64,000 bases of DNA from Actinomycetes bacterium. Lineage in GTDB: Bacteria > Actinomycetota > Acidimicrobiia > Spongiisociales > JAHEDJ01. Under the pieces are notes generated by a model. That model saw nothing but the letters and a program-made list of their open reading frames with translations, was not told the DNA's origin and made no database searches. Position numbers and translations under genes: made by a program. Every line of letters starts with the position of its first letter. Position 1 is the first letter of the stretch. Positions 48,795 to 64,000 of this stretch are shown here, one piece after another. Location of the stretch: positions 167,136 to 231,135 of the forward strand of contig JAHEDK010000002.1 of the NCBI GenBank assembly GCA_024641245.1, in the 5' to 3' direction.

Positions 48795-49484
48795 ATGCAG
48801 AGAACAAACGAGCTGACACAAGGCGCGCGGCGGCTGGCCTGGTTGACACTTTTGACGCTCGCATGGTTGTTGTGGATGAGTCAGGCGGCCGCCCACGCCC
48901 AGGAACTCCCGGTACGGGATGATCCGTTCTGGAAGACGGACACCTGCCTCGGCTGCCATCAGCAGTCGGACCTGTCGGTGACGCTGCCATCCAACGAGAC
49001 GCTGCGCCTCGCCGTGTATAGAGGCGCGTACGAAGATTCGGTGCATGGTCGAACAGGAGTGGCCTGCCGCAATTGCCATCTCGACATCACGGGGTATCCG
49101 CACCCTGATCTCACCGCCGGAAGCCTGGCCGAGTTCTCAGAACAGCAGGCCAGTTCTTGCGAGATGTGTCACCGTGACCACTACGGCAAAGTGGCGGATG
49201 AGCTGCATGAGGAGTCCGGTGGGTTGCTGTGCTTCGAGTGTCATGATCCGCACACCACCGGCACCGGCTCCGTCTCGGCAGAAGTGCAAGCCTCCTGCAA
49301 CGCCTGCCACTCCGAGGGTATCGCCATTCCTGTCGAGGGGATTCATGCCGCGCCCGAGGTACCTGTCGCGGAGACCACAAGCGGCGTTACAATCCTGCTC
49401 ATCCTCGGCGGAATCTTCGTCGGTTTCGTCGTCCTCGTCTGGCTGGCGACGGTGGCTTGGCGTGTCGTGCGCGACCGAAGCTGA
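48795..49484 (+). CDS. pentahaem cytochrome c with signal peptide and C-terminal TM anchor
   Basis: Five CXXCH motifs: CLGCH, CRNCH, CEMCH, CFECH, CNACH. The C-terminal helix is ILLILGGIFVGFVVLVWLATVAW. The N-terminal half is paralogous to the 61800 gene. Confidence 0.85.
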   Translation: MQRTNELTQGARRLAWLTLLTLAWLLWMSQAAAHAQELPVRDDPFWKTDTCLGCHQQSDLSVTLPSNETLRLAVYRGAYEDSVHGRTGVACRNCHLDITGYPHPDLTAGSLAEFSEQQASSCEMCHRDHYGKVADELHEESGGLLCFECHDPHTTGTGSVSAEVQASCNACHSEGIAIPVEGIHAAPEVPVAETTSGVTILLILGGIFVGFVVLVWLATVAWRVVRDRS

Positions 49485-49625
49485 TCGGGCCCGTTTCCGC
49501 AGGTTAGCTTGTAGCAATTCCCAATCTTGTGCGCCCTTTCACATGGGTCGAATGACCCTACGCGATCTGCGCGCGGATCCGTCATCATGTCGGTACACGA
49601 GTCGAGTAGCTCCCGGGGAGGAAGC

Positions 49626-51698
49626 ATGAGTCGATTTCGACACACACGCTTGGTTGTGCTTGTCGCCCTGCTGATGGTCTTAGCGGCCTGCACGAGCAGC
49701 GCCGACGACACCACCACTACGGGAGCGGAAGGGTCAACGCCCACGACAGCTCCACCGGTCGTCGAGCCGGCGGAATCCGAGCTCGTGGTTCCGTTCCTAG
49801 CGGCCTGGGTCGGTTCTGGACACAACGACGCGACTGCTGAAGCCTTCGTGCACTGGAATGAGGACGACCCCCAGGTCATTCCGACCAGTTGCGCGAAGTG
49901 CCACAGCACCCCCGGTCACCTCGATTTCCTCGGAGCCGACGGCAGCCCGTTCGGCAGCGTTGAAGCCGACGCCCCCATCGGGACCACGATCCAATGCGAA
50001 GCGTGCCACAACGATGTCACGATCTCCCTGGACAGCGTCGTGATGCCATCGGGTCTCGAACTCACCGGCCTCGGCGACGAATCCCGTTGCATGAACTGCC
50101 ACCAGGGCAGGGAGTCCAAGATCAGCGTGGACGCATCGATTACCGAAGCGGGCGTCGAAGAGGACACCGTCTCCGAGGATCTGGGTTTCCGGAACATCCA
50201 CTACTTCGCGGCTGCCGCCACCAAATACGGTACCGAAGCCAAGGGTGGCTATGAGTACGAGGGCAAGACGTACGATGCGTTCTTCGTCCACGTCGAGGGA
50301 TACTCGACCTGTATTCAGTGCCATGATCCGCACACGCTGGAACTGAAGATCGCCGAATGCTCGACATGCCACACCGGTGTCGCCACGGTTGAGGATCTCC
50401 GAGATGTCCGTATGCCGGGATCACTCGTCGACTTCGACGGAGACGGGAATCTCGAAGAGGGCATCTACTACGAACTCGAGGGCGTGCGGGGACTCTTGCT
50501 CCAGGCCATTCAGGCGTATGCCTCCGAGGTGGCGGGAACCGGCATCACCTACGATGCCAACGCCTACCCGTACTTCTTCGATGAGGCCGGCAAGGGCTTT
50601 GGCGCGTGGACCCCGCGTCTGCTCAAAGCGGCGTACAACTATCAGGTGTCCCTCAAGGACCCGGGAGCATTCGCGCACGGTGGCAAGTACATCCTCGAGT
50701 TGATGTACGACTCGATCGAGAACCTCAACGAAGCCATCTCGTCGCCCATCGACATGACGGCGATGCACCGAATCGACCACGGGCACTTCGCCGGGTCCGA
50801 GGAAGCCTTCCGGCACTGGGACGAGGATGGCGCCGTGCCGGCTTCGTGCTCACGGTGCCACTCGGCTGGAGGCGTGCCGCTGTATCTGCAGGAAGGCGTG
50901 ACGATAACCCAGCCAACTTCCAACGGGTTCAACTGCTCGACGTGCCACAACAGCACGAGCGAGTGGACCCGGTATGAGGTCCTCGATGTGACCTTCCCGA
51001 GCGGTGCGACTATCGACAGCGGCGACCAGAACGCCAACCTTTGCATGACCTGTCACCAGGGCCGTGAATCCGGCGCAAGCGTCGACCGGCGGATCGGAGA
51101 CACCGGGGCGGATACCGTCAGCGACACACTTGGCTTCATCAACGTGCACTACCTGCCGGCGGGCGCCACGCTCTTCGGCAGCGAGGCAGCGGGTGGCTAC
51201 CAGTACGCCGGGCAGACCTATGCCGGAGCCAACGATCACCCCATCGCCACGTGCACGGGTTGCCACAGCGCCCACACACTACAGGTTGAGGTTGAGGCCT
51301 GCGGGGGTTGCCATCAGGGGACGAACTCTGAAGAAGACCTGCAGGACATCCGCATCACCGCCGGCGACTTCGATGGTGACGGCGACGAGGCCGAGGGCAT
51401 CGCCGGAGAGGTCGAGACCATGCGCGAAGCCCTGCTGGCGGCGATGCAGGCGTATGCGGACGCCACGGACGGCGTGAGCCCGATCGTGTACGACGCCCAC
51501 GCCTATCCGTACTTCTTCAACGACGCCGGTGAGAGCTATTCGACCTGGACGCCGCGTCTGCTGAGGGCCGCCTACAACTACCAGTACGCAACGAAGGACC
51601 CTGGTGCGTTCGCCCACAACCCGGCCTACGTGCTCGAGTTGTTGTATGACTCGCTGGCGGACATCGGCGCCGACGTGACGGGGCTGATCAGGCCGTAG
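49626..51698 (+). CDS. decahaem cytochrome c lipoprotein, internally duplicated (2 x 5 haems)
   Basis: Lipobox LLMVLAAC after ATG 49626 (RBS GGGGAGGAAG). Ten CXXCH motifs. The two halves align (e.g. YPYFFDEAGKGFGAWTPRLLKAAYNYQVSLKDPGAFAH versus YPYFFNDAGESYSTWTPRLLRAAYNYQYATKDPGAFAH). Confidence 0.85.
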   Translation: MSRFRHTRLVVLVALLMVLAACTSSADDTTTTGAEGSTPTTAPPVVEPAESELVVPFLAAWVGSGHNDATAEAFVHWNEDDPQVIPTSCAKCHSTPGHLDFLGADGSPFGSVEADAPIGTTIQCEACHNDVTISLDSVVMPSGLELTGLGDESRCMNCHQGRESKISVDASITEAGVEEDTVSEDLGFRNIHYFAAAATKYGTEAKGGYEYEGKTYDAFFVHVEGYSTCIQCHDPHTLELKIAECSTCHTGVATVEDLRDVRMPGSLVDFDGDGNLEEGIYYELEGVRGLLLQAIQAYASEVAGTGITYDANAYPYFFDEAGKGFGAWTPRLLKAAYNYQVSLKDPGAFAHGGKYILELMYDSIENLNEAISSPIDMTAMHRIDHGHFAGSEEAFRHWDEDGAVPASCSRCHSAGGVPLYLQEGVTITQPTSNGFNCSTCHNSTSEWTRYEVLDVTFPSGATIDSGDQNANLCMTCHQGRESGASVDRRIGDTGADTVSDTLGFINVHYLPAGATLFGSEAAGGYQYAGQTYAGANDHPIATCTGCHSAHTLQVEVEACGGCHQGTNSEEDLQDIRITAGDFDGDGDEAEGIAGEVETMREALLAAMQAYADATDGVSPIVYDAHAYPYFFNDAGESYSTWTPRLLRAAYNYQYATKDPGAFAHNPAYVLELLYDSLADIGADVTGLIRP

Positions 51699-52708: not shown

Positions 52709-52755
52709 GCCCAACACCATCAAGGTTGGGTGTGACAAATCCCGAACCCAGTGAA

Positions 52756-52800
52756 CTTGCGTCAGAAACGGGCGCCGGCCGCCCCAAACTGACGCAAGAA
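52756..52800. repeat. REP-like palindromic element, copy C1 (CTTGCGTCAG-N23-CTGACGCAAG)
   Basis: 10-bp perfect arms. The spacer contains GGGCG-ccggc-CGCCC. Confidence 0.8.
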
Positions 52801-52824
52801 AGGGATAGGGGCGCCACCTTCTCG

Positions 52825-52871
52825 TTCTTGCGTCAGTGTTCCGAGCAACGGGCCCAGAAGTGACGCAAGAA
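52825..52871. repeat. REP-like palindromic element, copy C2 (TTCTTGCGTCA-N25-TGACGCAAGAA)
   Basis: 11-bp perfect arms. The left flank CTTCTCGTTCTTGCGTCAG is identical to copy A. Confidence 0.85.
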
Positions 52872-52939
52872 TGAGGAGAGACAGAGAAGTGGGGAGCCTT
52901 TCGGCTCCCCACTTCGGGTGTTCGTTAAGCGACTCTTGT

Positions 52940-53935: not shown

Positions 53936-54249
53936 TTCACCCTCCTCCCGATCGGGCGCTAGCCCGACGTCATGGGAGCCGACCGCTCCCTCCAGTCCCT
54001 TTCCAAACCGTTCCCCGTGCCGCCCTGCGACTCGGGGTGCCCAATCAACGATCAGGATAATCAGACCTTTTAGGTCAAAATATGCCGATAGCACTTGGCG
54101 TATTCATCACTCTATGTGTTTGTCGACACGGCGTCAAGTTGGAGAAGGGCCCCATAACGACAGGGCCGTTCGGCCCTATCAACGAGGCACACCGCACTAC
54201 CGAAATCGGCCGGAACAGGTATTATTTATCTCAGGGTGGCGGAGGATAA

Positions 54250-55752
54250 TTGACCAAACTCGTCAAGTTTCGAGTAATGGGTGTATTTCGTCAGCGGATC
54301 GTGCTTGCGACCACGCTGAGCGTTTTCTTCGGCGTTCTCACGTTCCTGCCGGCTGCAGCCGGGCCCGGCCAACCCGCGGACGCAGCAGCAAGTTCGATGC
54401 CCCTCACAATCCTTGCGATGGCGCAGGCAGCTGAGTTCCCGGATCCCCACGGCCTCCTCAACGCCAACAGCAACGGGTGTCTCTCCTGCCACGACACACA
54501 CGACGCGCCCGGGCCGGCGTTGCTGGCAACTGCCACCGAAAAGGAAGCCTGCTACCGGTGTCACGATGGGAGCGGTGCCACGGCCAACATCCGGGCAGCA
54601 TTCGGTGAGTCGATACTCGGGGAGAGTACCCAACGTTCATACCATCCCCTCCCCCACGCGCTCGACGGATACTCGGTAACTTGTGGCGACTGCCACACGC
54701 CGCATCAGGCTCGATCCGAGTTCACGAAGCTCCTGCGTATCAACGACGGTTCCGGCGGCTGGGTCTACTCGCCGACCGACACACCGATTGGCAACACCTA
54801 CTGCTACCGGTGCCACGGCACCGATTCTCCATTCCCCGCACCATTCGGCGATCAGACCACGTTCGAGGGAGGCGTACACCAGGTGCTCGGTGGCGATCCT
54901 CCCTCGGGATCGGGCATCCAGTGCGTGAACTGTCACGACGGCCACGGTTCGGCCTACCCGGGCCTCTCGCAACAAGAGGCCACCTGCTTCACCTGCCACA
55001 ACACGGCAACGCCCAACACCAACCCCGATCTGCCCTTCGACACCACCGAACTCGAGTACGCCTTCACGGCCGTAGCCAACGACTACGACGCCACCGACGC
55101 CGACGGCTTGATTCGCATCTACCACCACCCCATCGGCGACGATGAACAAGACGGCGGGAGCCGTCGGGTCGAGTGCGCCTCATGCCACAACGCTCATCGA
55201 GTTGACCGCGACTACTCAGGAACTGGGAGCAAGATTTCGAATCCGGGAGACACCCGGGGGGACGTCGCCATTACGTGGACGGACGGCACGTTCACCCGGG
55301 GCACCATCTCACAGTTTTGCGTTGCGTGTCACCAGGACCCGGCCACGACCGCTCCAATCAACGCCGGCACCTGGGTCCCCTACGACATACGGCTCACCGA
55401 CGACTCAGCCGTCCTCAACGGGAGCGGCGGACCCCACGACACTTTCGACGCAACGTACTATTTCACCAACGAACGGTCTGACCACGGTGCGGGCGCCCAA
55501 CTCGCCTGCACCGCCTGCCACGACCCGCATGGCTCATCGAACGCCTACATGTTGCGCGAGAATGTGATCAGCCCTGGCGGAGCGGGTGTGCCCGCCGGCA
55601 CCGTCGGCCCTCGGGTGACCGGATTCGTCGATGAGGACACCCCAGAACAACAGACAATCCTCTCGGGCTTCTGTGGCAGCTGCCACGGCGATCACCACAC
55701 CCCCAACAGGCTCTGCACACAGTGCCACAATCACGGATCGCCGCGGTTCTGA
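54250..55752 (+). CDS. secreted undecahaem cytochrome c
   Basis: Eleven CXXCH motifs. The signal peptide is FRQRIVLATTLSVFFGVLTFLPAAA. The TTG start is preceded by GGCGGAGGA. Confidence 0.85.
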   Translation: MTKLVKFRVMGVFRQRIVLATTLSVFFGVLTFLPAAAGPGQPADAAASSMPLTILAMAQAAEFPDPHGLLNANSNGCLSCHDTHDAPGPALLATATEKEACYRCHDGSGATANIRAAFGESILGESTQRSYHPLPHALDGYSVTCGDCHTPHQARSEFTKLLRINDGSGGWVYSPTDTPIGNTYCYRCHGTDSPFPAPFGDQTTFEGGVHQVLGGDPPSGSGIQCVNCHDGHGSAYPGLSQQEATCFTCHNTATPNTNPDLPFDTTELEYAFTAVANDYDATDADGLIRIYHHPIGDDEQDGGSRRVECASCHNAHRVDRDYSGTGSKISNPGDTRGDVAITWTDGTFTRGTISQFCVACHQDPATTAPINAGTWVPYDIRLTDDSAVLNGSGGPHDTFDATYYFTNERSDHGAGAQLACTACHDPHGSSNAYMLRENVISPGGAGVPAGTVGPRVTGFVDEDTPEQQTILSGFCGSCHGDHHTPNRLCTQCHNHGSPRF

Positions 55753-55936
55753 TGACAGACCCGACCTCCATCACCCGGCGAATGCCATTGGGCCCTACAG
55801 GACACAATTCGACCGCGGGTACCGTCGCGTTAGGACCCGCGGGTGCTGTCAGGAACCGCGGATTGGGCCACATGGGAGAGAGGCGAGGGCCCGCAATGGT
55901 TTGTGAATGCCGTGAGTGGTCGAGAGGGGGCCCACG

Positions 55937-56362
55937 GTGTTGATCACCCGCGAGGTCGACTACGCCGTGCGCTGTGTTCTCGACGTAGCCCGCACCGGGC
56001 ACACCTCCACCGGAGCAGTCGCCGAACGGGCCGGGATACCCCCATCGATCCTCGGGCGCATCGTGGCGGCTGTATCGAAAGCCGGCATACTCACTACCAG
56101 ACGAGGAGTCAAAGGCGGCATCGATCTTGCGCGCGATCCAAGCGAGATCAGCCTGCTTGACGTCATAGAGGCGGTGCAAGGTCCGCTCTTCGTCAACATC
56201 TGCTGCGAGCATCCCGAAACCTGTGACGCCGCTACCAACTGTCCGATCCGACCCGTCTGCGAGGACGCCTTCGACGAGCTGAGACGGGTCTTCTCGGTGA
56301 CCTACGACACATTGCTCAACGGCGGCCACGTTCCTCTCCGCCCGTTCGTCCAAGAGGAGTAG
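55937..56362 (+). CDS. Rrf2 family transcriptional regulator with CX5CX5C(X5C) Fe-S-type cysteine cluster
   Basis: VLITREVDYAVRCVLDVA...winged HTH, then CCEHPETCDAATNCPIRPVC, spaced as in IscR/NsrR-type cluster ligands. Confidence 0.85.
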   Translation: MLITREVDYAVRCVLDVARTGHTSTGAVAERAGIPPSILGRIVAAVSKAGILTTRRGVKGGIDLARDPSEISLLDVIEAVQGPLFVNICCEHPETCDAATNCPIRPVCEDAFDELRRVFSVTYDTLLNGGHVPLRPFVQEE

Positions 56363-56423
56363 GCGTGTATTACCTGGGGACCATTGCGGCCTATAGCGCA
56401 CCCCATCTCGTCGGGTTTTCGCG

Positions 56424-57296
56424 ATGAAGCGACGAACCCAGCTTTACGCGCTCGGCGGACTCCTCATTGTTGTTTCGTTTGCCGCCTGGCGGTTGACGGA
56501 CGATCCGGCAATCGAACCACCGCTGATCCCGATCGCAGCAACCGCCGTGGTCGCAGACTCCGACTTCGACGCGTGCCTCGAGTGCCACGACGACATCGAG
56601 CAATCCCTCCAAGCCGGACTGGTGCAACTCATCGGATTTCGACACGAAGAGCACTTCTCGAATTCCGGCGACGTCGGTTGCGGCAACTGCCACGGTCTCG
56701 ACACGCACGATCGCACCCCGCCGCAGGCACCGACCATGGAGGATTGTTTTTCGTGCCACCTCGACGCCGGGCCGGCTGCCGAGTTGCCGTGTCTCCGCTG
56801 TCACGACAACGCCACTGTGCCACCGCCGCAGAGCCACTTCACCTCAGAGTGGCGCGACGTTCACGGCTCCGGCGCCCTGCTCAGCCAGTCGCTGTGCGAG
56901 ACCTGCCACTCGCGACAAGATTTCTGCACGGCGTGCCACGGTGTCGATATTCCGCATCCAGACGGATGGACCGGCTATCCACACGCACGTGCGACGTTCG
57001 ATTCGGGCATCGAGTCGTGTGCACGCTGCCACGAGCGCGGTCCGGAACTGACGGCTCGCGACGAATGTGACGGCTGCCACCATCCGCAGAACCCCGCAGA
57101 ACCCATCTGGAAGGATGCTCACCCAGAGGTGGTCCGAAGCCAGGGTGGCTCGACGTGCTTCGAGTGCCACGACCCCAACACATGCGCCACATGTCACACA
57201 TCGGGAGTTGAAGACTTCTCCGCCGATCTCAACCGGCTCGAAGTGCCCGGCCCACCAAAGGTCACGGAGTCACCGCCCGAGGACGGTGACTCGTGA
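56424..57296 (+). CDS. membrane-anchored decahaem cytochrome c
   Basis: N-terminal TM helix (LYALGGLLIVVSFAAW) and ten CXXCH motifs in 290 aa. Contains the repeated module CxxCH-x3-4-CxxCHG.DIPHPD.W. Confidence 0.85.
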   Translation: MKRRTQLYALGGLLIVVSFAAWRLTDDPAIEPPLIPIAATAVVADSDFDACLECHDDIEQSLQAGLVQLIGFRHEEHFSNSGDVGCGNCHGLDTHDRTPPQAPTMEDCFSCHLDAGPAAELPCLRCHDNATVPPPQSHFTSEWRDVHGSGALLSQSLCETCHSRQDFCTACHGVDIPHPDGWTGYPHARATFDSGIESCARCHERGPELTARDECDGCHHPQNPAEPIWKDAHPEVVRSQGGSTCFECHDPNTCATCHTSGVEDFSADLNRLEVPGPPKVTESPPEDGDS

Positions 57297-58309
57297 GTCT
57301 GTCCCCGGTACCCATCGGACCGGCGGGACGCTCGCCCGGAATCCCATTCCCGGCACCACCGACCGCCCTCCGGCGATTCTCAACGCAACCACCGCCACCT
57401 CCCGACGGCGAGCCATCTCGCCGTCCCGAGCTTCGTGCCCTCGGTGACGGGGCGGGCTCGGGAAGGGACAACAGGGCATCGGAGCCACGCGGGTCTCGCT
57501 GGCTTCGGCGCCTCGTCATCATCGTCGCGACCGTCGGCGCCCTCGTATTCGTCGCCTCCTGGAGCTACGCCTCGTCATCGCGCAACATGTGCGGAAGCTG
57601 TCATAGCGTCTCGGCGGCTGCAGAATCCGCCGGTGATTCGGTGCACGCAGATATCCCGTGCCTCGCCTGCCACAGGCAAGCGGGCATCGTCGGAGCGTTC
57701 ACCTACCTCCCTGTGCTGCTGCGCGAGTCTGTTCACGAGCTGACTGGACTCTCTATCGCCGAAGGAGTGCTCGACCCCGTCGGATGTGGTTCTTGTCACT
57801 CTTTCCTATCCGACGCGGCGGCGCGAGGCGATCATCCGGACGAGACAGCAGAATGCTCGTCCTGCCACGGCAACGTAGCCCACCCGGGAGCCGGGACGGC
57901 TCCGGAAGGGGACGGCCATCCGTCCGGGTTCTTCGCTTTCCACGGCCGGGATTCCGTCGCTTCGCCCGGATCATGCGCAGAATGCCATAAGAACGACTTC
58001 TGCTCGGCCTGCCACTTCCGCACGGAGTATCCGCATCCGGAAACCTGGACGTCGCTCCATGGTCCGGCGTCAATCGAAGGCGGCCCCGCTGCTTGTGTGA
58101 TGTGCCACGAGCCCACGTACTGTTCGAGCTGTCACGGCGCCGACATCCCCCATCCGGACAACTGGTTCGAGATCCATCATCGGGCAACCGACCCGGCAGT
58201 CGGGTCGGCCTGCCTATCGTGCCATGCAGCCTCCGAGTGCTCCTCCTGCCACGTCCGGCACTCAGTTCACAACGAGCAAGGGCTCTACCAGTGGGACCTC
58301 AAGCCATGA
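57293..58309 (+). CDS. membrane-anchored decahaem cytochrome c with Pro/Arg-rich cytoplasmic N-terminus (NapC/NirT-like layout)
   Basis: 4-bp overlap with the upstream gene. The TM helix LVIIVATVGALVFVASW is followed almost immediately by the first haem motif (SSSRNMCGSCHS). Ten CXXCH motifs in total. Confidence 0.85.
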   Translation: MSLSPVPIGPAGRSPGIPFPAPPTALRRFSTQPPPPPDGEPSRRPELRALGDGAGSGRDNRASEPRGSRWLRRLVIIVATVGALVFVASWSYASSSRNMCGSCHSVSAAAESAGDSVHADIPCLACHRQAGIVGAFTYLPVLLRESVHELTGLSIAEGVLDPVGCGSCHSFLSDAAARGDHPDETAECSSCHGNVAHPGAGTAPEGDGHPSGFFAFHGRDSVASPGSCAECHKNDFCSACHFRTEYPHPETWTSLHGPASIEGGPAACVMCHEPTYCSSCHGADIPHPDNWFEIHHRATDPAVGSACLSCHAASECSSCHVRHSVHNEQGLYQWDLKP

Positions 58310-59157
58310 AAGGCATCCGGGTGCTCATGACTGTGGTCCTCACTCTCGTACTCGCTGAGGTGACGCTCGTGGCCTTCGTGACCTTCTCCGAGGATGCCCG
58401 GGGCGCGGTCACCGACGCGTGGGCCAAGACCGTGAACGCGTGGGCCGGCTCGGAGGAGCGGGCAGGCAATTTCGAGCTGCTCCTGTCGTCTGCAGACGAG
58501 TTCGCTGCTGAATGGGTCCAGCCATTGTGGAGCGCGCCGGAGGCGGCTCCGGCCGGCACCGGATTCTCCGAATGCGTGACCTGCCACACGGATTACGCCG
58601 AACGTCGCCTGTTCACCGGCGTCTTCATGAATCATCCACTGCATTCGGAGTTGGGAATCGCGTGCGCCGAATGCCACACCGACGTTGCGCATCCCCTCCC
58701 TCTCCCTCCGGCCGAAGAGACTTGTGCAGGGTGCCACAATCAAGTCGAACGAGACGGCCCGGCCTCCGACTGTAGCTATTGCCACAAACCTGGCTCGCTG
58801 GCGCACTATCAGTCACTTGGCGTTCCCGACGGAGCCGCCAACTGCAGCACCTGCCACCTTCCGGATTCGTTCGGGCACACCGATCAGCACGCCTTGACGG
58901 TTACTCCAAGCTTCGATGGAACCGATTCCGCCGTCTGCCTCAACTGCCATCAGGCGGCCGCCTGCGCTCGATGCCATGATTCCTCCCACCCGGCCGACTG
59001 GGTATCCCTTCACGGCGCAGAGGTCCAGGACGCCGGTACCGGCGCCGGCTCCTGCGCGGCGTGTCATTCGACAAACTGGTGCGCTGGAGCCTGCCACCTG
59101 AGTGGAACTCTCCAGGGCGGCAGGCTGCTCCCCCTACCGATCGGAGACGATGACTGA
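58306..59157 (+). CDS. membrane-anchored octahaem cytochrome c (plus one CX3CH motif)
   Basis: ATGA overlap, with ATG 58306 inside the longer track ORF. N-terminal TM helix. Eight CXXCH motifs and a C-terminal CAGACH. Confidence 0.85.
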   Translation: MKGIRVLMTVVLTLVLAEVTLVAFVTFSEDARGAVTDAWAKTVNAWAGSEERAGNFELLLSSADEFAAEWVQPLWSAPEAAPAGTGFSECVTCHTDYAERRLFTGVFMNHPLHSELGIACAECHTDVAHPLPLPPAEETCAGCHNQVERDGPASDCSYCHKPGSLAHYQSLGVPDGAANCSTCHLPDSFGHTDQHALTVTPSFDGTDSAVCLNCHQAAACARCHDSSHPADWVSLHGAEVQDAGTGAGSCAACHSTNWCAGACHLSGTLQGGRLLPLPIGDDD

Positions 59158-59819
59158 TGGCGAATCGACGAACCTTGCTCGTGCTCGTGGGCACGATCGG
59201 TGCGGTGGCAGCTGCTGCGGCCATCTGGATCGTAGGCGGCGCCGATCCGGATCCACTCATCGCCGAGGTGGATGGGATTCCGATCCGGCAATCACAAGCG
59301 GACTCGCGGATTGAAGGCATCGCCTCGATTCACGGCGACATCACGACGACGCTCGGTAGCGAGTGGAGAGCCACCGTGCTGCAGTCCCTCGTCGATGACG
59401 TGATCGTTCAGATCGAAGCCGACCGGAGATCCCTCGAACCGACCGATGCCGATCTCGAACAAGCAGTCGCCGATACCAAGGCAATGGTGGGTACCGATGC
59501 GGACTGGGAGATCTGGCTTACGGACCAGGGGCTCGACGACGAGGAAGTTGAGCGGCGCCTGACCACCCAGATCAGGACCAACCGTGTGTACGACGCGGTC
59601 ACCGCCGATGTGACTATCGCGCGCACCGACCTCGAGGCCTACTACGAGGCGAACCTCGACCAGTTCACCGTCGACGGCGCCGTCAGAGAACTCTCCGAGG
59701 TCGAAGAGCAAATCAAGGTGGCCGTTGAAAGCATGATGCGAGATCGCGTCTACGCCGAGTGGATCGACGCCCGCCGGGCCGAAGTCATCCTGGAGGTGGT
59801 GCACGATGACTGGCGATAG
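59157..59819 (+). CDS. membrane-anchored SurA-N-terminal-like chaperone domain protein (no PPIase domain seen)
   Basis: TGATG overlap with the octahaem gene. A TM anchor is followed by IAEVDGIPIRQSQADSRIEGI..., resembling SurA_N/PrsA N-domains. The call is tentative. Confidence 0.5.
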   Translation: MANRRTLLVLVGTIGAVAAAAAIWIVGGADPDPLIAEVDGIPIRQSQADSRIEGIASIHGDITTTLGSEWRATVLQSLVDDVIVQIEADRRSLEPTDADLEQAVADTKAMVGTDADWEIWLTDQGLDDEEVERRLTTQIRTNRVYDAVTADVTIARTDLEAYYEANLDQFTVDGAVRELSEVEEQIKVAVESMMRDRVYAEWIDARRAEVILEVVHDDWR

Positions 59820-60480
59820 GCAACCCGCCGACAGGGAGCAGAATGTCAACGTCCTCCTGGTCATTGTCGGCTTGTTGACGCTCCTCGTGGTCGGGCTCGG
59901 TGCAGCCGTTGTCTTCATCCAACTCAACTCCGATCCGGTCCCCCAGACGGTTGCCGAACGGGACCTCAATCTCTGGCTGCGCCTCGCCGACGACAATCCT
60001 GATGCCGTATGGGCACAGGTCGGCCTGGGGCAAGCACACCTGGCAGGCCAGGATATGGAGGCCGCCCGGGCTGCCTTCGCAGCGGCCCTGGCCATCGATC
60101 CGGCTTCGCCGGAAGCACTGTTCCAGATGGGGCTCCTCGTCCGAGCAGAGGATCCGAATCTGGCCGTCGATTACCTTCGGCGAGCCGTCGAAGCCGCAAC
60201 GGGAGCAGACAAGGCGCGCCCGAACCTGGCGCTCGGAGATCTTCTGATGGAGCGAGGCGACTGGGAAGCGGCGCGGCTGGCCTATGAGTCGTCCATAGCC
60301 AATCTCCCCTTCCTATTGCCCGCGCACCTGGGACTTGCCCGGTCCCTCGAAGCGCTCGGTGACTCCGACGGTGCCCTTGCCGCCTACCTCCAGGCCTCGG
60401 CCTTCGATCCGACGGATCCCGAGATCAAGGAGGCGATCACTCGCCTCGGAGGCACCCAACCCGAGACAACGAACCCGTAG
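59806..60480 (+). CDS. membrane-anchored TPR repeat protein
   Basis: TM helix followed by TPR-like repeats (AQVGLGQAHLAGQDMEAARAAFAAALAIDP..., LALGDLLMERGDWEAARLAYESSI..., HLGLARSLEALGDSDGALAAYLQASAFDP). Confidence 0.7.
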   Translation: MTGDRQPADREQNVNVLLVIVGLLTLLVVGLGAAVVFIQLNSDPVPQTVAERDLNLWLRLADDNPDAVWAQVGLGQAHLAGQDMEAARAAFAAALAIDPASPEALFQMGLLVRAEDPNLAVDYLRRAVEAATGADKARPNLALGDLLMERGDWEAARLAYESSIANLPFLLPAHLGLARSLEALGDSDGALAAYLQASAFDPTDPEIKEAITRLGGTQPETTNP

Positions 60481-60488
60481 GAGCACCG

Positions 60489-61655
60489 ATGGACAGACCA
60501 CCACCAGGACCGATTGCGCACCAGCCACCGCCGTCTCCAGCGCCGGAATCGGGCAATGCCACCCAGACCACTCGCCGCCTAATGATCGGCATGATCATCG
60601 TGCTGTCACTCGCTGCCATCGGCCTGCTCATCCTCCTCCTGTTGCTCCTTCGATCCGGGGAGGAGCCCCAGTCGCTGGCGATGCCCGACGATTGCCCGCT
60701 CGACATCTCCCGCTCGGTATACGGATACGGAGCGGAGTTGGATCAGTTGCTCAACAAGCCGCTGGCCGTCACATTCGACGGCAGTGAGAACCTCTGGGTC
60801 TCCGATACCGGGAACGGGCGGGTCCTGGCACTCGACACCGATGGGAACCTTCTCAGAATCATCGGCACCGAGGAGGGGGCCGGCCGAATGTTCAGCCCGT
60901 ATGGCCTCGCCTTCGATGAGACCTACCAACGGCTCTACGTTGCCGACTGGACAGCCCGATTCGTGTTCATCTATTCGCCGGACGGGCGGTACATCGAGCG
61001 CATACCCGCAGATGACCAGGATTTGACGATCTTCGGCGAAGCCGGGTTCACGCCGTTCCATGTCGAGGTATGGGGGGCGCAGATAATCGTCTCCAGCAAC
61101 GATGGGCTGTATTTCTTCGACCGGGCGGGGCATGTCACCGACCACTGGGGCCAACGTGGGGCTGAGGCCGGGGAGTTTGCGTTCCCCGATGCCTTCGACA
61201 TCGACCGCACCGCCGGAACGTTCTACGTCGCGGACACTCTCAATCGTCGGGTCGTCGCACTCGATTCCGCAGGCGAAGTCCTGTGGATCTCCGGCCGGCC
61301 AGACCAGGCAGGGGCAATCACCGGGTTCTGGCAGCTCCCGCGGTCTATCACCGTCGGGCAGGACGGAAATGTGTACGTCGTCGACACATTCAGGGCGCAG
61401 GAGAAGTGCTCCGGGATGGGACACGTTGTGGTGCTCGATCCCGGCGGCGAACTCGTCTCCGAATTTGGAGCGGCCGGCAGCCAGGAATGGGCGTTCAGTT
61501 TCCCGGAGAAGCTCGCAATCGGTCCAAACGGTACATTCGGGCTCGCTGACCGAGAAAAGGGTCGCGTGGTGGTGTTCGACGTTGGACAGCTTCCACCGGC
61601 CGACGAGTCCGAGGCGGACAAGTACCTGCAATCGTTCACCCGCTTCGATGATTGA
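60489..61655 (+). CDS. membrane-anchored NHL-repeat beta-propeller protein
   Basis: TM helix followed by about six NHL-like repeats (PLAVTFDGSENLWVSDTGNGRVLALD, PYGLAFDETYQRLYVADW, PDAFDIDRTAGTFYVADTLNRRVVALD, PRSITVGQDGNVYVVDT, PEKLAIGPNGTFGLADREKGRVVVFD). Confidence 0.8.
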   Translation: MDRPPPGPIAHQPPPSPAPESGNATQTTRRLMIGMIIVLSLAAIGLLILLLLLLRSGEEPQSLAMPDDCPLDISRSVYGYGAELDQLLNKPLAVTFDGSENLWVSDTGNGRVLALDTDGNLLRIIGTEEGAGRMFSPYGLAFDETYQRLYVADWTARFVFIYSPDGRYIERIPADDQDLTIFGEAGFTPFHVEVWGAQIIVSSNDGLYFFDRAGHVTDHWGQRGAEAGEFAFPDAFDIDRTAGTFYVADTLNRRVVALDSAGEVLWISGRPDQAGAITGFWQLPRSITVGQDGNVYVVDTFRAQEKCSGMGHVVVLDPGGELVSEFGAAGSQEWAFSFPEKLAIGPNGTFGLADREKGRVVVFDVGQLPPADESEADKYLQSFTRFDD

Positions 61656-61799: not shown

Positions 61800-62909
61800 A
61801 TGCGCACCAAGCTGCAAGGGTTCGCTCTGTGGGGGATGCTGTTCTTTGCCGTCGTCGGACTCACGGCCCTGTCGGCCGACCCGGCCTCAGCGCAGGATTC
61901 CGCCGACTCGGAAGTCAACAACTACTGCCTGGGATGCCACGAATCCGGGAACATCATTCTCACGTTCCCGTCGGGGGAGATGCTTCCCGCCGTGGTGCCG
62001 CGTACCGTTTTCGACGCCTCTATCCACGGTCAGGTCGGCCTCACCTGCATCGCCTGTCATACCGATATCGGGCAGTACCCACACGACCCCATGTCGGCCG
62101 TCACCCGGCGAGACCTGGCGATCGAGTTGTACACCACGTGCTTCAACTGCCACGAGAGCGAATACACCGACACGCTCGACAACATGCACACCGAAGCTCT
62201 CGCCGGCGGCAACCGGGAAGCCGCCGTCTGCACCGACTGCCACGGCGCTCACAACGTCACCCACCCCAGCGTCGACACAACGGCCATCCCGCGCACCTGC
62301 CGGAACTGCCACTCCGAGATCTACGACCTGTACGCCGGCAGCATCCACGGTGCCGCCCTACTCGAACACGACAATCAGGACGTTCCAAGCTGCACGAGTT
62401 GTCACGGCGTCCACAGTGTTGAAGGACCCTCGCACTCGCAATTCCACCTGTTCTCACCGAAAATCTGCGAGGACTGCCACGCCGATGAAGCTCTCATGGG
62501 CAAGTACGGGATCAGCACGGCGGTCTTCGACACCTACGTAGCCGATTTCCACGGCACGACGGTCATGCTCTTCGAGGAACTGGCGCCCGACCAGAAGACC
62601 AACTCGCCGGTCTGTATCGACTGCCACGGCGTGCACAACATCCTGGCCGCCAACGAGGTCGACTCGACCGTCTACAAGGAGAACCTGCTCCTCACCTGTC
62701 AGCGGTGCCACCCAGACGCCACCGCCAACTTCCCCGACTCGTGGATGAAGCACTACCAACCGACCTCCGACCAGGCGGTCCTTGTCTGGCTGGTCAATTG
62801 GTTCTACCGACTCGTCATCCCCGGCGTCGTGGGGGGCATGCTCGTCTGGGTGACGATCGACGGCATTCGCCACTTGCAGCATCGACGGAAGGCGGCCGAG
62901 AGTGTCTGA
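61800..62909 (+). CDS. nonahaem cytochrome c with signal peptide and C-terminal TM anchor
   Basis: Nine CXXCH motifs: CLGCH, CIACH, CFNCH, CTDCH, CRNCH, CTSCH, CEDCH, CIDCH, CQRCH. The C-terminal helix is LVIPGVVGGMLVWVTIDGI. Confidence 0.85.
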   Translation: MRTKLQGFALWGMLFFAVVGLTALSADPASAQDSADSEVNNYCLGCHESGNIILTFPSGEMLPAVVPRTVFDASIHGQVGLTCIACHTDIGQYPHDPMSAVTRRDLAIELYTTCFNCHESEYTDTLDNMHTEALAGGNREAAVCTDCHGAHNVTHPSVDTTAIPRTCRNCHSEIYDLYAGSIHGAALLEHDNQDVPSCTSCHGVHSVEGPSHSQFHLFSPKICEDCHADEALMGKYGISTAVFDTYVADFHGTTVMLFEELAPDQKTNSPVCIDCHGVHNILAANEVDSTVYKENLLLTCQRCHPDATANFPDSWMKHYQPTSDQAVLVWLVNWFYRLVIPGVVGGMLVWVTIDGIRHLQHRRKAAESV

Positions 62910-64000
62910 CGTCCTTGAGCGCGCAGCAGTCGACGTCGAACTGGACGATCGGATACTGCGTTTTGGAAAGGCGGATCGCATCGAGCATGCGGTCCAGGTA
63001 ATCAGCTTCGCCGGCCTCGGCCTCACTGGGCTGATCCAGAAGTTCTTCGAGTCGGCGATTTCTCAGTGGTGGATTGAGTTCCTTGGTGGGTTGCCACAGG
63101 TGCGCGTCATTCATCGCTGGCTGGCGACCATCCTCATGCTCGCCGTCATCTGGCACTTCGGTAAAGCCGGATATCGCACGTACGTCGAACGGCGACCGCG
63201 AGCCATGGTCCCGAGCAAGCGCGACTGGATTGCCATCAAGGAATCGATCGCGGTGCTGGCGGGACGGCGTCACGAACCTGTGAAACAAGGTCGATTCACG
63301 TTCGCGGAGAAGGTCGAGTACTGGTCGTTCGTCTGGGGCACCGTCTTGATGATCGCCACCGGCTATATGCTGTGGAACCCGATTTCCACCGCCAAGTTCC
63401 TCCCCGGTGATTTCATCCCGGCCGCCAAAGCGGCACACGGTGGAGAAGCGATCCTGGCTGTGCTGGCCATCCTCGTCTGGCACATCTACCACGTGCACAT
63501 CAAGCATTTCAACAAGAGCATCTTCACCGGCTACATCAGCCGGGCAGAGATGATCGAAGAACATGGCCTCGAACTCGAGGCGATGGAGGCGGGCAAGACC
63601 GGTCCGCAGGCGACACAAGCCGAGATTGTGGAGCGGCGGCGCAAGTTCCTTCCCGCCTTCGGTGTTGTGGCGGTCCTCATGATGGCCGGCATCTACTGGT
63701 TCGTGAGCTTCGAGGATACGTCGATCGCCACCATCGAGCCCATCGAAAACGTGGTGGCATACAAGCCACTGCCTCCTGAACAGCAGAGCGGCCCGGCGCT
63801 TTCTGGTGACAATCCGCTCCCGACCATCGTCATCCCCGACACCACCCTCCCCACCGAGACGACGGTGCCGCAGGGTGAAGTCACATGGGCCACGGTTGGG
63901 CCCGTTCTGGCCGATAGCTGCGGTACGTGCCATTCGGCCTCGAACTCCATGGGCGGGCTCGACCTTTCGTCGTACGAGGGGGCGCTGGGTTCCGAGGGAG
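62902..64000 (+). CDS. FdnI/HydC-type dihaem cytochrome b fused to a C-terminal PSCyt1-like cytochrome c domain; 3' end outside the window; absent from the ORF track
   Basis: My own translation of frame 1 from GTG 62902, which overlaps the nonahaem stop by 8 nt: VSDVLERAAVDVELDDRILRFGKADRIEHAVQVISFAGLGLTGLIQKF...IHRWLATILMLAVIWHF...FTFAEKVEYWSFVWGTVLMIATGYMLW...AAHGGEAILAVLAILVWHIYHVHI...VGPVLADSCGTCHSASNSMGGLDLSSYEGAL. There is no stop up to base 64000. Confidence 0.8.
   Translation, partial: MSDVLERAAVDVELDDRILRFGKADRIEHAVQVISFAGLGLTGLIQKFFESAISQWWIEFLGGLPQVRVIHRWLATILMLAVIWHFGKAGYRTYVERRPRAMVPSKRDWIAIKESIAVLAGRRHEPVKQGRFTFAEKVEYWSFVWGTVLMIATGYMLWNPISTAKFLPGDFIPAAKAAHGGEAILAVLAILVWHIYHVHIKHFNKSIFTGYISRAEMIEEHGLELEAMEAGKTGPQATQAEIVERRRKFLPAFGVVAVLMMAGIYWFVSFEDTSIATIEPIENVVAYKPLPPEQQSGPALSGDNPLPTIVIPDTTLPTETTVPQGEVTWATVGPVLADSCGTCHSASNSMGGLDLSSYEGALGSEG

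What the first reader, a model, noticed from the sequence alone, without database searches (positions are those of the whole stretch)
61800..64000. Split CbcL-like module (nonahaem cytochrome c coupled to an FdnI-type cytochrome b), with the b gene invisible in the ORF track
Seen directly: the nonahaem gene ends at 62909. A GTG at 62902 opens a frame-1 ORF that runs without a stop to base 64000. The track instead lists a 372-aa antisense ORF at 62815-63933.

My translation shows four TM helices with the His pattern of formate dehydrogenase gamma / hydrogenase cytochrome b subunits: RIEHAVQV, IHRWLATILMLAVIWH, AAHGGEA and VWHIYHVH. A Pro/Thr-rich linker follows, then a CGTCHS...GGLDLSSY cytochrome c (PSCyt1-like) domain.

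From memory, Geobacter sulfurreducens CbcL is a fusion of an FdnI/HydC-type dihaem cytochrome b with a nine-haem periplasmic domain. It acts as an inner-membrane quinol oxidase for low-potential extracellular acceptors.

The inference is that this pair is a split analogue and a candidate entry point from the quinone pool into the multihaem network. A PSCyt1 domain also ends the complex-1 subunit IV fusion, which hints at a shared docking or electron-acceptor partner.
Basis: partly seen in the sequence, partly recalled or inferred. Interest (0 to 1): 0.7.

Follow-up and report, generated by a model that had tools for sequence, protein, structure and literature searches.

The report
Split CbcL-type quinol–cytochrome module
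Two overlapping genes at the end of the window encode a nine-haem cytochrome c and a membrane cytochrome b that together are a two-piece relative of Geobacter's CbcL, the protein that passes electrons from membrane quinol to acceptors outside the cell; this two-piece form is common in Acidimicrobiia and Anaerolineae but is not called CbcL in the literature I could search.

Summary
A nine-CXXCH cytochrome c gene (61800-62909) overlaps by 8 nt a GTG-started gene (62902 onward) that runs off the window. The 372-aa antisense ORF is a shadow: its GC3 is atypical and it has no Pfam match.

A near-identical contig completes the second gene at 500 aa. It has an FdnI-fold dihaem cytochrome b (4 TM), a fifth TM helix, a disordered Pro/Thr linker and two PSCyt1/FoxE-like monohaem c domains.

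Both genes are collinear homologues of CbcL:
- Nonahaem versus Desulfuromonas thiophila CbcL: E 5e-30.
- b domain versus CbcL-type b domains: hhalign probability 99.9%, E 5e-35.
- All nine CXXCH motifs, the anchor helix, the b helices and the last helix align. The gene boundary falls in CbcL's linker.

The pair is adjacent in every testable locus (88 b genes in 82 loci), mostly Anaerolineae and Acidimicrobiia. No formate dehydrogenase or hydrogenase catalytic gene is adjacent. Fused relatives also exist.

Most likely function, inferred only: a 13-haem menaquinol:cytochrome oxidoreductase feeding extracellular electron transfer.

The other PSCyt1 pair in the window is 30% identical and has Met where this one has His.

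Verdict: a new variant of a known kind, of moderate interest.

The parts
61800..62909 (+). Nonahaem cytochrome c gene (369 aa), the counterpart of the CbcL c domain plus anchor helix. Signal-like segment at aa 1-31. Nine CXXCH motifs plus nine further invariant His.
   Evidence: ORF and translation. Nine CXXCH and nine extra His are invariant in 28 homologues. Collinear with D. thiophila CbcL, E 5e-30.
62775..62858 (+). C-terminal membrane-anchor helix of the nonahaem subunit (about aa 326-353), followed by a basic tail on the cytoplasmic side.
   Evidence: AF2 model places a long helix at aa 327-368. It aligns with the anchor helix between the c and b domains of CbcL. No conserved His in this helix.
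62902..62909 (+). Eight-nucleotide overlap between the GTG start of the b gene and the TGA stop of the nonahaem gene. Translational coupling is likely.
   Evidence: Sequence. The same start is used in the database protein P0001. The same 8-nt overlap occurs in L006, L008 and L010. The relative frame varies across the family, so each gene has its own start.
62902..64000 (+). Cytochrome b / PSCyt1 gene, aa 1-366 of 500. It is cut by the window end; by the L002 coordinates the stop lies about 404 nt beyond it.
   Evidence: Translation. Complete gene in L002 at 2906-4408. 100% identical to P0001.
62959..63513 (+). FdnI/HydC-fold dihaem cytochrome b domain (aa 20-204, TM1-TM4). Invariant His at 29, 71, 85, 179 and 194, plus H199 nearly invariant.
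   Evidence: Pfam PF01292, 47.5 bits. FdnI 1kqf_C by profile and by fold. hhalign to CbcL-type b domains 99.9%. Invariant residues.
63631..63711 (+). Fifth TM helix (about aa 244-270), which places the C-terminal c domains outside the membrane. Counterpart of the last helix of CbcL.
   Evidence: AF2 helix at aa 239-277. Charge distribution follows the positive-inside rule. Aligns with the last CbcL helix.
63712..63882 (+). Pro/Thr/Ser-rich disordered linker (aa 271-327).
   Evidence: 21 of 57 residues are P, T or S. pLDDT is below 50 for aa 277-290 and 298-324.
63883..64000 (+). Start of the first PSCyt1/FoxE-like monohaem c domain (CGTCH at 63919-63933). The rest of it and the second domain lie beyond the window.
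   Evidence: Pfam PSCyt1, 53.1 bits, two stretches in the full-length protein. FoxE 5mab, E 1.2e-8.
62815..63933 (-). Antisense 372-aa ORF. It is a shadow of the real gene, not a gene.
   Evidence: GC1/2/3 of 0.76/0.47/0.61, against 0.62/0.44/0.77 for the sense frame. No Pfam family.
48795..51698 (+). Pentahaem (229 aa, similar to the N-terminal half of the nonahaem) and 723-aa decahaem cytochromes. In four relatives (L008, L006, L058, L010) a large multihaem cytochrome of about 706-755 aa sits directly upstream of the pair; the pentahaem counterpart was seen only in L008. Likely electron-transfer partners (context).
   Evidence: HMM hit of 48795-49484 to the nonahaem profile, E 5.7e-39. Pfam. 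Synteny in L008, L006, L058 and L010.
55937..61655 (+). Same-strand cluster directly upstream: Rrf2 regulator, three multihaem cytochromes (one NrfH-like), a SurA-like protein, a TPR protein and an NHL-repeat protein (context).
   Evidence: Gene calls on L001, which is identical to the window over the overlap. Pfam and NCBIfam.

Best explanation
The two overlapping genes encode the two subunits of a CbcL-family bc-type cytochrome in a probable Acidimicrobiia bacterium, which would have no outer membrane.

Subunit 1 is an exported nine-haem cytochrome c, with all haems predicted to be bis-His. It is held on the outer face of the cytoplasmic membrane by a C-terminal helix.

Subunit 2 is an FdnI-fold four-helix dihaem cytochrome b. 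It is followed by a fifth helix, a flexible Pro/Thr tether and two small FoxE/PSCyt1-type monohaem c domains that are also predicted to be bis-His. That makes 13 haems in all.

Proposed mechanism, inferred and not shown:
1. Menaquinol is oxidised at a site near the cytoplasmic-side b haem, at the position of the FdnI quinone site. The invariant EKxEYW motif lies there.
2. Electrons cross the membrane through the two b haems.
3. They are handed to the nonahaem chain and/or the tethered monohaem domains.
4. From there they pass to the other multihaem cytochromes encoded nearby, and on to extracellular acceptors of low potential.

By analogy with CbcL, protons would be released to the cytoplasm. 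The step would then conserve no energy but would be helped by the membrane potential.

What is shown: gene structure, domain content, conserved ligand residues, homology to CbcL and FdnI, and strict conservation of the gene pair. What is inferred: physical association of the two subunits, quinol as substrate, direction of electron flow and the partners.
For: - Gene structure and the completed 500-aa product.
- Nine CXXCH plus nine further invariant His in the nonahaem, and no invariant Met. CbcL likewise has nine bis-His haems (PMC9129911).
- b domain: Pfam PF01292 above its cut-off. FdnI 1kqf_C at E 5.9e-16 with all four haem-ligand His aligned. The fold match to 1kqf_C is the only significant PDB hit.
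- Homology to CbcL: BLAST E 5e-30 for the c part; 28% identity over 590 collinear columns including the anchor and last helices; hhalign 99.9%, E 5e-35 for the b part. CbcL-type b domains score higher than FdnI.
- The His pattern H(TM1), H(TM2), H-x14-H-x4-H (TM4) is shared with CbcL-type b domains.
- Pairing: 88 of 94 b genes in 82 related loci were scored as having the nonahaem gene directly upstream on the same strand. Five of the other six sit at contig starts with no upstream DNA; the sixth (L051) has the nonahaem upstream but failed the script's distance test because the b ORF call ran on upstream.
- Fused c-b proteins exist in the same family, for example P0297 with 52% identity in the b part.
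- In the three relatives whose neighbours were checked against Pfam (L006, L007, L008) there is no FDH or hydrogenase catalytic gene. The neighbours are multihaem cytochromes, ccm genes and haem-biosynthesis genes.
- A protein with three TM helices and seven haem motifs lies next to the pair in L008, L006 and L010. It is 38% identical (E 1e-123) to the gene next to a Geobacteraceae cbcL in L090.
- Topology is N-in, C-out, with basic residues concentrated in the predicted cytoplasmic loop between TM2 and TM3 and at the cytoplasmic end of TM5.
Against: - There are no experimental data for any member of this split family.
- The FdnI architecture natively reduces quinone with electrons that come from outside, so the direction of flow is open.
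- The window offers other routes from the quinone pool: two petB/petD sets and an NrfH-like multihaem cytochrome.
- No multimer model could be made. The nonahaem AF2 model is poor (pLDDT 66) and has no significant structural match.
- The comparison was with Desulfuromonadales CbcL relatives, recovered through OCR fragments of a published alignment. It was not with GSU0274 itself.
- The His in CbcL's anchor helix has no counterpart here.
- The quinone type of the organism is unknown.
Confidence: 0.68

Rival explanations
1. Same complex, opposite direction. It would be a quinone reductase that takes electrons from outside (Fe(II), reduced humics, a syntrophic partner or a cathode) through the c haems. 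It would reduce menaquinone at the cytoplasmic side, as FdnI does, and so build proton-motive force as half of a redox loop.
For: - FdnI, the only solved relative, works in this direction (established knowledge of Fdn-N).
- The C-terminal domains are homologous to FoxE, a periplasmic Fe(II) oxidase (PMC10654088).
- CbcL homologues MtoC and MtrH are assigned to Fe(II) oxidisers (PMC6295460).
Against: - All eleven c haems have invariant His, and no invariant Met, at the distal-ligand positions. FoxE's Met is replaced by His. This points to low potentials, like the CbcL c domain at -194 mV (PMC9129911).
- Reducing menaquinone with Fe(II) at neutral pH leaves little driving force to work against the membrane potential.
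- Bis-His ligation does not fix the potential, and the complex could be reversible.
Confidence: 0.2
2. An ordinary gamma (cytochrome b) subunit of a formate dehydrogenase, hydrogenase or thiosulfate reductase, as many database annotations say ('cytochrome b subunit of formate dehydrogenase').
For: - Source annotations of the homologues.
- Weak NCBIfam matches to FdnI models, 45-56 bits.
Against: - These scores are far below the equivalog cut-offs of 115.85-341 bits.
- No catalytic subunit gene was found next to the pair in L006, L007 or L008, the relatives whose neighbours were checked against Pfam.
- The upstream partner is always the nonahaem cytochrome.
- The protein carries its own c-type domains.
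Confidence: 0.03
3. The nonahaem protein is a catalytic multihaem enzyme of the NrfA/HAO kind, acting on a nitrogen or sulfur compound, and uses the cytochrome b as its quinone link.
For: A short stretch (aa 70-135) matches NrfA nitrite reductases at E 2e-6. There are weak NrfB/DmsE family matches.
Against: - There are nine invariant distal His for nine CXXCH haems, and no CXXCK motif or obviously open coordination site.
- The NrfA match covers a common two-haem packing module only.
- The closest full-length relative is the non-catalytic CbcL c domain.
Confidence: 0.04

Closest known systems
CbcL (GSU0274) of Geobacter sulfurreducens and its Desulfuromonadales relatives: an inner-membrane bc cytochrome needed for acceptors between about -100 and -210 mV
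   Same: - Nine CXXCH haems in an outward-facing domain, all predicted to be bis-His.
- An anchor helix, an FdnI/HydC-type dihaem b domain and an extra final helix, six TM helices in all.
- The order c then b is the same, and homology is collinear over about 590 residues.
- No FeS, flavin or molybdopterin partner.
- An ImcH-like gene lies next to it in some genomes of both groups.
   Different: - It is split into two genes at the linker between the anchor helix and the b domain.
- It carries one to four extra PSCyt1/FoxE-like monohaem domains after the last helix, two in this protein.
- There is no conserved His in the anchor helix.
- There is an extra invariant His (H85) at the cytoplasmic end of b TM2.
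- Identity is only about 26-30%.
- The hosts are Acidimicrobiia and Chloroflexota rather than Desulfuromonadia.
CbcBA of G. sulfurreducens: separate dihaem cytochrome b (CbcB) and seven-haem CbcA with a C-terminal anchor
   Same: A two-subunit layout: a multihaem cytochrome c anchored by a C-terminal helix, plus a separate four-helix dihaem b of the Ni_hydr_CYTB superfamily.
   Different: - Nine haems here against seven in CbcA.
- CbcB is reported to have three His ligands, with the fourth supplied by CbcA's C-terminal domain (10.1101/2021.04.15.440034). Here the b subunit holds all four, and the anchor helix has no conserved His.
- CbcBA and CbcL are reported to share no sequence homology, and this pair aligns with CbcL.
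- I did not compare it directly with CbcBA.
FdnI, gamma subunit of E. coli formate dehydrogenase-N (PDB 1KQF chain C)
   Same: - A four-helix bundle with two b haems.
- All four His ligands align.
- The fold match has TM 0.79 normalised to FdnI.
- The partner subunit is anchored by a single C-terminal helix, as FdnH is.
   Different: - There is no FdnG/FdnH partner; the partner is a multihaem cytochrome.
- There is an extra fifth helix and c-type domains.
- NCBIfam scores are far below the equivalog cut-offs.
- The likely direction of flow is the opposite one.
FoxE of Rhodobacter ferrooxidans SW2 (PDB 5MAB) and Pfam PSCyt1 (PF07635)
   Same: The two C-terminal domains match both FoxE haem domains (E 1.2e-8) and PSCyt1 (53 bits).
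   Different: - The distal ligands of FoxE are Met (PMC10654088). The aligned positions here are invariant His in a GGHPG motif.
- These domains are tethered to a membrane cytochrome b, not a free periplasmic protein.
- There are no foxY or foxZ neighbours.

Membership tests
CbcL-type bc cytochrome | Nine CXXCH c-haem motifs in an outward-facing N-terminal domain | tested here: met
   Nine CXXCH in 61800-62909, invariant in 28 homologues. All nine align with those of D. thiophila CbcL.
CbcL-type bc cytochrome | All c haems bis-His: conserved extra His and no conserved Met (PMC9129911) | tested here: met
   Nine further invariant His (76, 95, 130, 151, 183, 205, 251, 279, 318) and no invariant Met outside the membrane. 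This is sequence-level evidence only; it was not checked by spectroscopy.
CbcL-type bc cytochrome | HydC/FdnI-type dihaem b domain homologous to that of CbcL | tested here: met
   PF01292 above its cut-off. hhalign against 12 CbcL-type b domains gives probability 99.9%, E 5e-35 over 217 columns. BLAST gives 70-99 bits against 48 bits for FdnI.
CbcL-type bc cytochrome | c and b domains fused in one polypeptide | tested here: not met
   Two ORFs with an 8-nt overlap in different frames. The same split is seen in four independent assemblies and at all 88 pairs found in 82 related loci, with no fusion among them. Fused relatives do exist elsewhere in the family.
CbcL-type bc cytochrome | Six TM helices: anchor, four b helices and one final helix | tested here: met
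   One helix in the nonahaem subunit and five in the b subunit. All six align with the D. thiophila CbcL helices.
CbcL-type bc cytochrome | A candidate b-haem His in the first (anchor) helix (10.1101/2021.04.15.440034) | tested here: not met
   CbcL relatives carry FW(L/I)HS in the anchor helix. The anchor helix of this family has no conserved His.
CbcL-type bc cytochrome | Needed for reduction of low-potential extracellular acceptors; menaquinol oxidase activity | not testable with these tools
   This needs genetics or biochemistry. It is supported only by context: many multihaem cytochrome genes, ccm genes, and an ImcH-like neighbour in relatives.
FdnI (formate dehydrogenase-N gamma subunit) | Four-helix dihaem b with His ligands on TM1, TM2 and TM4 (two) | tested here: met
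   H29, H71, H179 and H194 align with FdnI H18, H57, H155 and H169 (the FdnI residue numbers are from memory). Foldseek 1kqf_C, E 2.8e-7.
FdnI (formate dehydrogenase-N gamma subunit) | Score above the NCBIfam equivalog cut-off | tested here: not met
   54.9 bits against 339, 50.8 against 115.85, and 44.6 against 341.
FdnI (formate dehydrogenase-N gamma subunit) | Encoded next to FdnG/FdnH-type catalytic and FeS subunits | tested here: not met
   None in L006, L007 or L008 within 8-10 kb. The upstream gene is always the nonahaem cytochrome.
CbcBA | Seven-haem CbcA whose C-terminal domain supplies the fourth b-haem His | tested here: not met
   Nine haems. The anchor helix has no conserved His, and the b subunit has all four ligands.
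CbcBA | Sequence homology to CbcB and CbcA | not tested
The literature says CbcBA and CbcL share no sequence homology (10.1101/2021.04.15.440034).
PSCyt1 (PF07635) / FoxE-like cytochrome c domain | Pfam score above the gathering cut-off | tested here: met
   53.1 bits against 22, two stretches in the full-length P0001. Only 16.7 bits in the truncated window copy.
PSCyt1 (PF07635) / FoxE-like cytochrome c domain | FoxE-type His/Met haem ligation | tested here: not met
   The FoxE Met positions align with invariant His387 and His479 in GGHPG motifs. FoxE ligands are taken from PMC10654088.

The most novel reading that the evidence does not exclude
This split CbcL relative would be the main gate from the quinone pool to extracellular electron transfer in bacteria without an outer membrane: Anaerolineae and other Chloroflexota, and Acidimicrobiia. 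Its tethered bis-His FoxE-like domains would stand in for the free periplasmic shuttle cytochromes of Geobacter. Its frequent neighbour, an ImcH-like protein with seven haem motifs, would make CbcL plus ImcH an old two-gate module shared with Desulfuromonadia. If so, the pair would be a genetic marker, and a testable mechanism, for the long-suspected electroactivity of Anaerolineae in digesters and sediments.
Probability: 0.3. Interest if true: 0.7.

Novelty: new variant of a known kind. Interest (0 to 1): 0.5.

Why it matters
CbcL is one of the few proteins known to link the quinone pool to extracellular electron transfer, and it has been studied almost only in Geobacter and its relatives. 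A 2018 survey counted no CbcL homologues in Actinobacteria or Chloroflexi (PMC6295460).

This work shows a two-gene form of the same machine, with added tethered cytochrome domains:
- It forms 173 clusters at 50% identity with E <= 1e-30.
- Most carriers are Anaerolineae and Acidimicrobiia. They include a cultured strain, Bellilinea caldifistulae GOMI-1, and a MAG assigned to Anaerolinea thermophila.

These genes are currently labelled 'formate dehydrogenase gamma subunit' or 'cytochrome b/b6 domain protein', which hides a probable respiratory function.

The finding gives a concrete gene pair to test for iron, humic or electrode respiration, or for electron uptake, in two abundant and poorly understood groups. 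The natural series of split and fused forms may also help show how the c and b modules of CbcL dock.

Tried and rejected
- **AlphaFold database search (afdb50).** I wanted it to find CbcL directly, but the library was not available.
- **Getting a CbcL sequence.** No tool fetches proteins by accession. I took OCR fragments of CbcL from the supplement of PMC9129911 and used them as a query. This returned only partial CbcL-type proteins. From one of them I reached the D. thiophila cbcL locus (L089). That gene carries a frameshift, and I rebuilt it by hand with two X residues at the junction. GSU0274 itself was never compared.
- **P0258 on L088.** It looked like a split Desulfuromonadales cbcL. 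The contig is full of broken genes and is probably an error-prone assembly, so I did not use it as evidence for splitting.
- **Nonahaem structure.** The AF2 model is poor (pLDDT 66). Foldseek against the PDB found nothing significant; the best hit was MtrA at E 0.24. The PDB sequence profile gave only a short NrfA module.
- **Promoter and terminator scan.** No promoter-like site was found. The three terminator-like hits are on the minus strand and are no more than chance would give (3 found against a shuffle mean of 1.5).
- **Programmed frameshift producing a fused protein.** Rejected, because the frame of the b gene relative to the nonahaem gene varies: 55 loci at +2, 30 at +1 and 4 at 0.
- **Literature.** Five searches for a prior description of this pair in Chloroflexi, Acidimicrobiia or Gram-positive bacteria found none. 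The library does not hold most subscription journals.


Full report
**1. The observation**

The ORF at 61800-62909 (+) encodes 369 aa with nine CXXCH motifs, a signal-like N-terminus and a C-terminal hydrophobic helix. A GTG at 62902 lies 8 nt before the end of that gene and opens a frame with no stop up to base 64000 (366 codons).

The ORF list shows only the antisense ORF 62815-63933, because ORFs that run off the window are not listed. That ORF is a shadow. GC at codon positions 1/2/3 is 0.62/0.44/0.77 in the sense frame, as in neighbouring genes, and 0.76/0.47/0.61 in the antisense ORF. The antisense product matches no Pfam family.

**2. Completing the gene**

The exact nonahaem protein occurs on four other assembled contigs. 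L001 matches the window without a mismatch over 12.2 kb. L002 differs at 1 of 2201 overlapping bases.

L002 carries the whole second gene, which is 500 aa and 100% identical to database protein P0001. Its parts are:
- A cytochrome b domain, Pfam Ni_hydr_CYTB, 46-47 bits against a cut-off of 30.1.
- A fifth TM helix.
- A linker of about 55 residues rich in Pro, Thr and Ser. It is disordered in the AF2 model.
- Two PSCyt1 domains, 53.1 bits against a cut-off of 22.

The charge distribution fits an N-in, C-out topology, which puts the c domains outside the membrane where c-type haems are attached.

**3. Conserved residues**

In 36 homologues of the b protein the invariant His are H29 (TM1), H71 and H85 (TM2), H179 and H194 (TM4) and H221, with H199 nearly invariant. 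Each c domain has an invariant CxxCH and an invariant His in a GGHPG motif.

In 28 homologues of the nonahaem, the nine CXXCH motifs and nine further His are invariant. No Met is invariant outside the membrane helix. All eleven c haems are therefore predicted to be bis-His.

**4. Solved relatives**

A profile search of the PDB found two relevant relatives.
- E. coli FdnI (1kqf_C), E 5.9e-16, with the four haem-ligand His aligned.
- FoxE, the dihaem Fe(II) oxidase of Rhodobacter ferrooxidans (5mab), E 1.2e-8, covering both C-terminal domains.

FoxE's distal ligands are Met (PMC10654088), and the aligned positions here are the invariant His. The AF2 model of the b protein (pLDDT 80) matches only 1kqf_C significantly in the PDB: E 2.8e-7, TM 0.79 normalised to FdnI.

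**5. The test against CbcL**

[quoted passage not shown] All nine c haems are bis-His, with an apparent potential of -194 mV (PMC9129911). It operates at about -100 to -210 mV (PMC13591261).

No tool fetches a protein by accession and the AlphaFold library was not available. I therefore took OCR fragments of CbcL from a published alignment and used them as a search query. That search and the two locus look-ups that followed returned:
- real CbcL-type b domains (P0241, P0243, P0258 and others);
- a Desulfuromonadales partial that spans the end of the c domain, the anchor helix and the b domain (P0275);
- the cbcL locus of Desulfuromonas thiophila (L089), whose gene is broken by one frameshift.

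The results were:
- Nonahaem against D. thiophila CbcL: 26% identity over 332 residues, E 5e-30.
- b protein against CbcL-type b domains: 70-99 bits, against 48 bits for FdnI.
- Profile against profile: probability 99.9%, E 5e-35 over 217 columns.
- Global alignment of nonahaem plus b (aa 1-290) against the rebuilt CbcL: 28% identity over 590 columns. All nine CXXCH motifs, the anchor helix, the four b helices and the final helix are in register. The gene boundary falls in the linker between the anchor helix and the b domain.

The TM4 His pattern (H-x14-H-x4-H) is shared with CbcL-type b domains.

There are also differences. CbcL's anchor-helix His has no counterpart here. H85 is extra. CbcL ends after its last helix, whereas this family continues into PSCyt1 domains.

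**6. Distribution and linkage**

- The b protein has more than 2500 database relatives and the nonahaem more than 6900. Both searches were capped at 8000 candidates, so these are lower bounds.
- By my reading of the record titles, the best 80 loci comprise 72 Chloroflexota, 6 Acidimicrobiia or Actinomycetota, 1 Planctomycetota and 1 unclassified. The Chloroflexota are mostly Anaerolineae. They include the isolate Bellilinea caldifistulae GOMI-1 and a MAG assigned to Anaerolinea thermophila.
- The closest named relatives of the window proteins (93% and 83% identity) are from Acidimicrobiia MAGs.

In 82 loci, 88 of 94 b genes were scored as having the nonahaem gene directly upstream on the same strand. 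Five of the other six lie at contig starts with no upstream DNA. In the sixth (L051) the nonahaem is upstream, but the b ORF call ran on upstream and failed the script's distance test. None of the 88 pairs is fused.

The frame of b relative to the nonahaem gene varies, so a programmed frameshift is unlikely. Among these b proteins, 12 have no PSCyt1 domain, 68 have one and 14 have two or more.

An exhaustive search of cluster representatives found 173 clusters at E <= 1e-30. Five of the best 150 are genuine c-b fusions, for example P0297 with nine CXXCH motifs and 52% identity in the b part. Splitting and fusion are therefore both found within one family.

**7. Neighbours**

No formate dehydrogenase or hydrogenase catalytic gene lies near the pair in the relatives whose neighbours I checked.
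- In L006 the neighbours are ccm genes, multihaem cytochromes and a convergent NapC/NirT-type cytochrome.
- In L007 they are multihaem cytochromes and two-component regulators.
- L008 is the closest species genome, at 77% identity. Its downstream genes are a convergent 500-aa NapC/NirT-type cytochrome, pheA and the haem-biosynthesis genes hemACDBLE.

That 500-aa protein has three N-terminal hydrophobic helices and seven haem motifs: six CXXCH plus one C-G-E-T-C-H. It is 38% identical over 499 residues (E 1e-123) to the gene next to a Geobacteraceae cbcL in L090. This matches the published description of ImcH (PMC6295460), but I did not compare it with GSU3259.

In the window the pair ends a same-strand cluster: Rrf2 regulator, three multihaem cytochromes, SurA-like, TPR and NHL-repeat proteins.

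In relatives, a large multihaem cytochrome of about 706-755 aa lies directly upstream of the pair (L006, L008, L010, L058), preceded in L008 by a pentahaem. In the window the equivalent genes lie about 10 kb away at 48795-51698.

**8. The PSCyt1 hint**

The 866-aa product of 35069-37669 is a petD-like domain followed by seven cbb3-type c domains and two PSCyt1 domains. However, its PSCyt1 tandem is only 30% identical to the one studied here, and it has Met (NLMPP) where this protein has His. The two tandems probably differ in potential, so a shared partner is not indicated.

**9. Mechanism**

Shown: the gene structure, the domains, the ligand residues, the homology and the strict pairing of the two genes.

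Inferred:
1. The two proteins form one complex, with the anchor helix packing on the b bundle as FdnH does on FdnI.
2. Menaquinol is oxidised near the cytoplasmic-side b haem. The invariant EKxEYW motif aligns with the FdnI segment that I recall as lining its quinone site (from memory).
3. Electrons cross the membrane through the two b haems and leave through the nonahaem chain and/or the tethered domains. They then pass to the neighbouring multihaem cytochromes and on to acceptors outside the cell.

As argued for CbcL (10.1101/2022.08.31.506072), this geometry would release protons to the cytoplasm. It would conserve no energy at this step, but the membrane potential would help push electrons onto low-potential haems.

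In cells without an outer membrane there is no enclosed periplasm for free shuttle cytochromes. Tethered domains make sense for that reason; this is an inference.

The main rival is the same complex running in reverse as a quinone reductase for electron uptake. The native direction of FdnI, the homology to FoxE and the CbcL relatives MtoC and MtrH all point that way. The all-His ligation argues against it but does not exclude it.

**10. Verdict**

It is a split relative of CbcL with added PSCyt1 domains. I file it as a new variant of a known kind.

Within the searchable literature I found no description of it. One survey counted no CbcL homologues in Actinobacteria or Chloroflexi (PMC6295460).

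Interest is moderate. The finding is not surprising in kind. It is useful because it gives a testable gene pair for extracellular electron transfer in two abundant groups, and at least one carrier is in culture.

Noticed in passing
window 48795-51698 and 51800-61655; L008 5784-8768; L006 4544-6664; L058 6186-8441; L010 6344-8611: In four relatives a large multihaem cytochrome of about 706-755 aa lies directly upstream of the nonahaem/b pair; L008 also has a pentahaem before it. In the window the equivalent pentahaem and 723-aa decahaem are separated from the pair by about 10 kb. That stretch holds an AbiEi-like gene, five more multihaem cytochrome genes, an Rrf2 regulator and SurA-like, TPR and NHL proteins. 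It looks like an insertion or rearrangement.
   Followed up: partly
L008 11721-13223 (-); L006 9679-11238 (-); L010 11692-13245 (-); L090 962-2533; L088 5272-6798: A NapC/NirT-type cytochrome of about 500-520 aa, with three N-terminal TM helices and seven haem motifs, lies next to the pair in Acidimicrobiia-like and other relatives. It also lies next to Desulfuromonadales cbcL, at 38% identity (E 1e-123). It is ImcH-like by architecture. A copy may lie just past the window end. None was found inside the window.
   Followed up: partly
window 34581-37669 and 39536-40865: There are two sets of cytochrome b6-type genes (petB-like plus petD-like). The first petD-like protein (866 aa) is fused to seven cbb3-type c domains and two PSCyt1 domains with Met ligands. 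Similar proteins of about 700 aa lie 3-5 kb downstream of the pair in many Anaerolineae loci, for example L054 14137-16242.
   Followed up: partly
L084 6834-8668; also L025, L042, L052, L056, L059, L060, L068, L075, L079, L082: Many Anaerolineae loci carry a second pair in tandem just upstream: another nonahaem gene followed by a bare cytochrome b of about 242 aa, with no fifth helix and no PSCyt1 domain.
   Followed up: no
L054 11169-12860: Directly downstream of the pair, a 563-aa protein combines a NapC/NirT-type N-terminus with a C-terminal PSCyt1 domain. Similar hits of about 565 aa recur in many Anaerolineae loci.
   Followed up: no
L002 4409-4569; L005 2232-2391: Two independent Logan contigs both end about 160 nt after the stop codon of the b gene. 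The assembly breaks at the same point, possibly at a repeat or at strain variation.
   Followed up: no
L089 3697-5540: The cbcL gene of the Desulfuromonas thiophila genome is interrupted by a single frameshift near locus position 4990 and is called as two proteins (434 and 179 aa). This is either a sequencing error or a pseudogene.
   Followed up: partly
window 60489-61655: A membrane-anchored NHL-repeat beta-propeller protein lies directly upstream of the nonahaem gene. Its best NCBIfam match is to ScyF-like proteins, far below the cut-off. Its role among the cytochromes is unknown.
   Followed up: no
L089 9392-10540: The same D. thiophila locus has a second c-then-b gene pair about 4 kb downstream of cbcL: a 345-aa multihaem cytochrome followed by a Ni_hydr_CYTB protein.
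   Followed up: no
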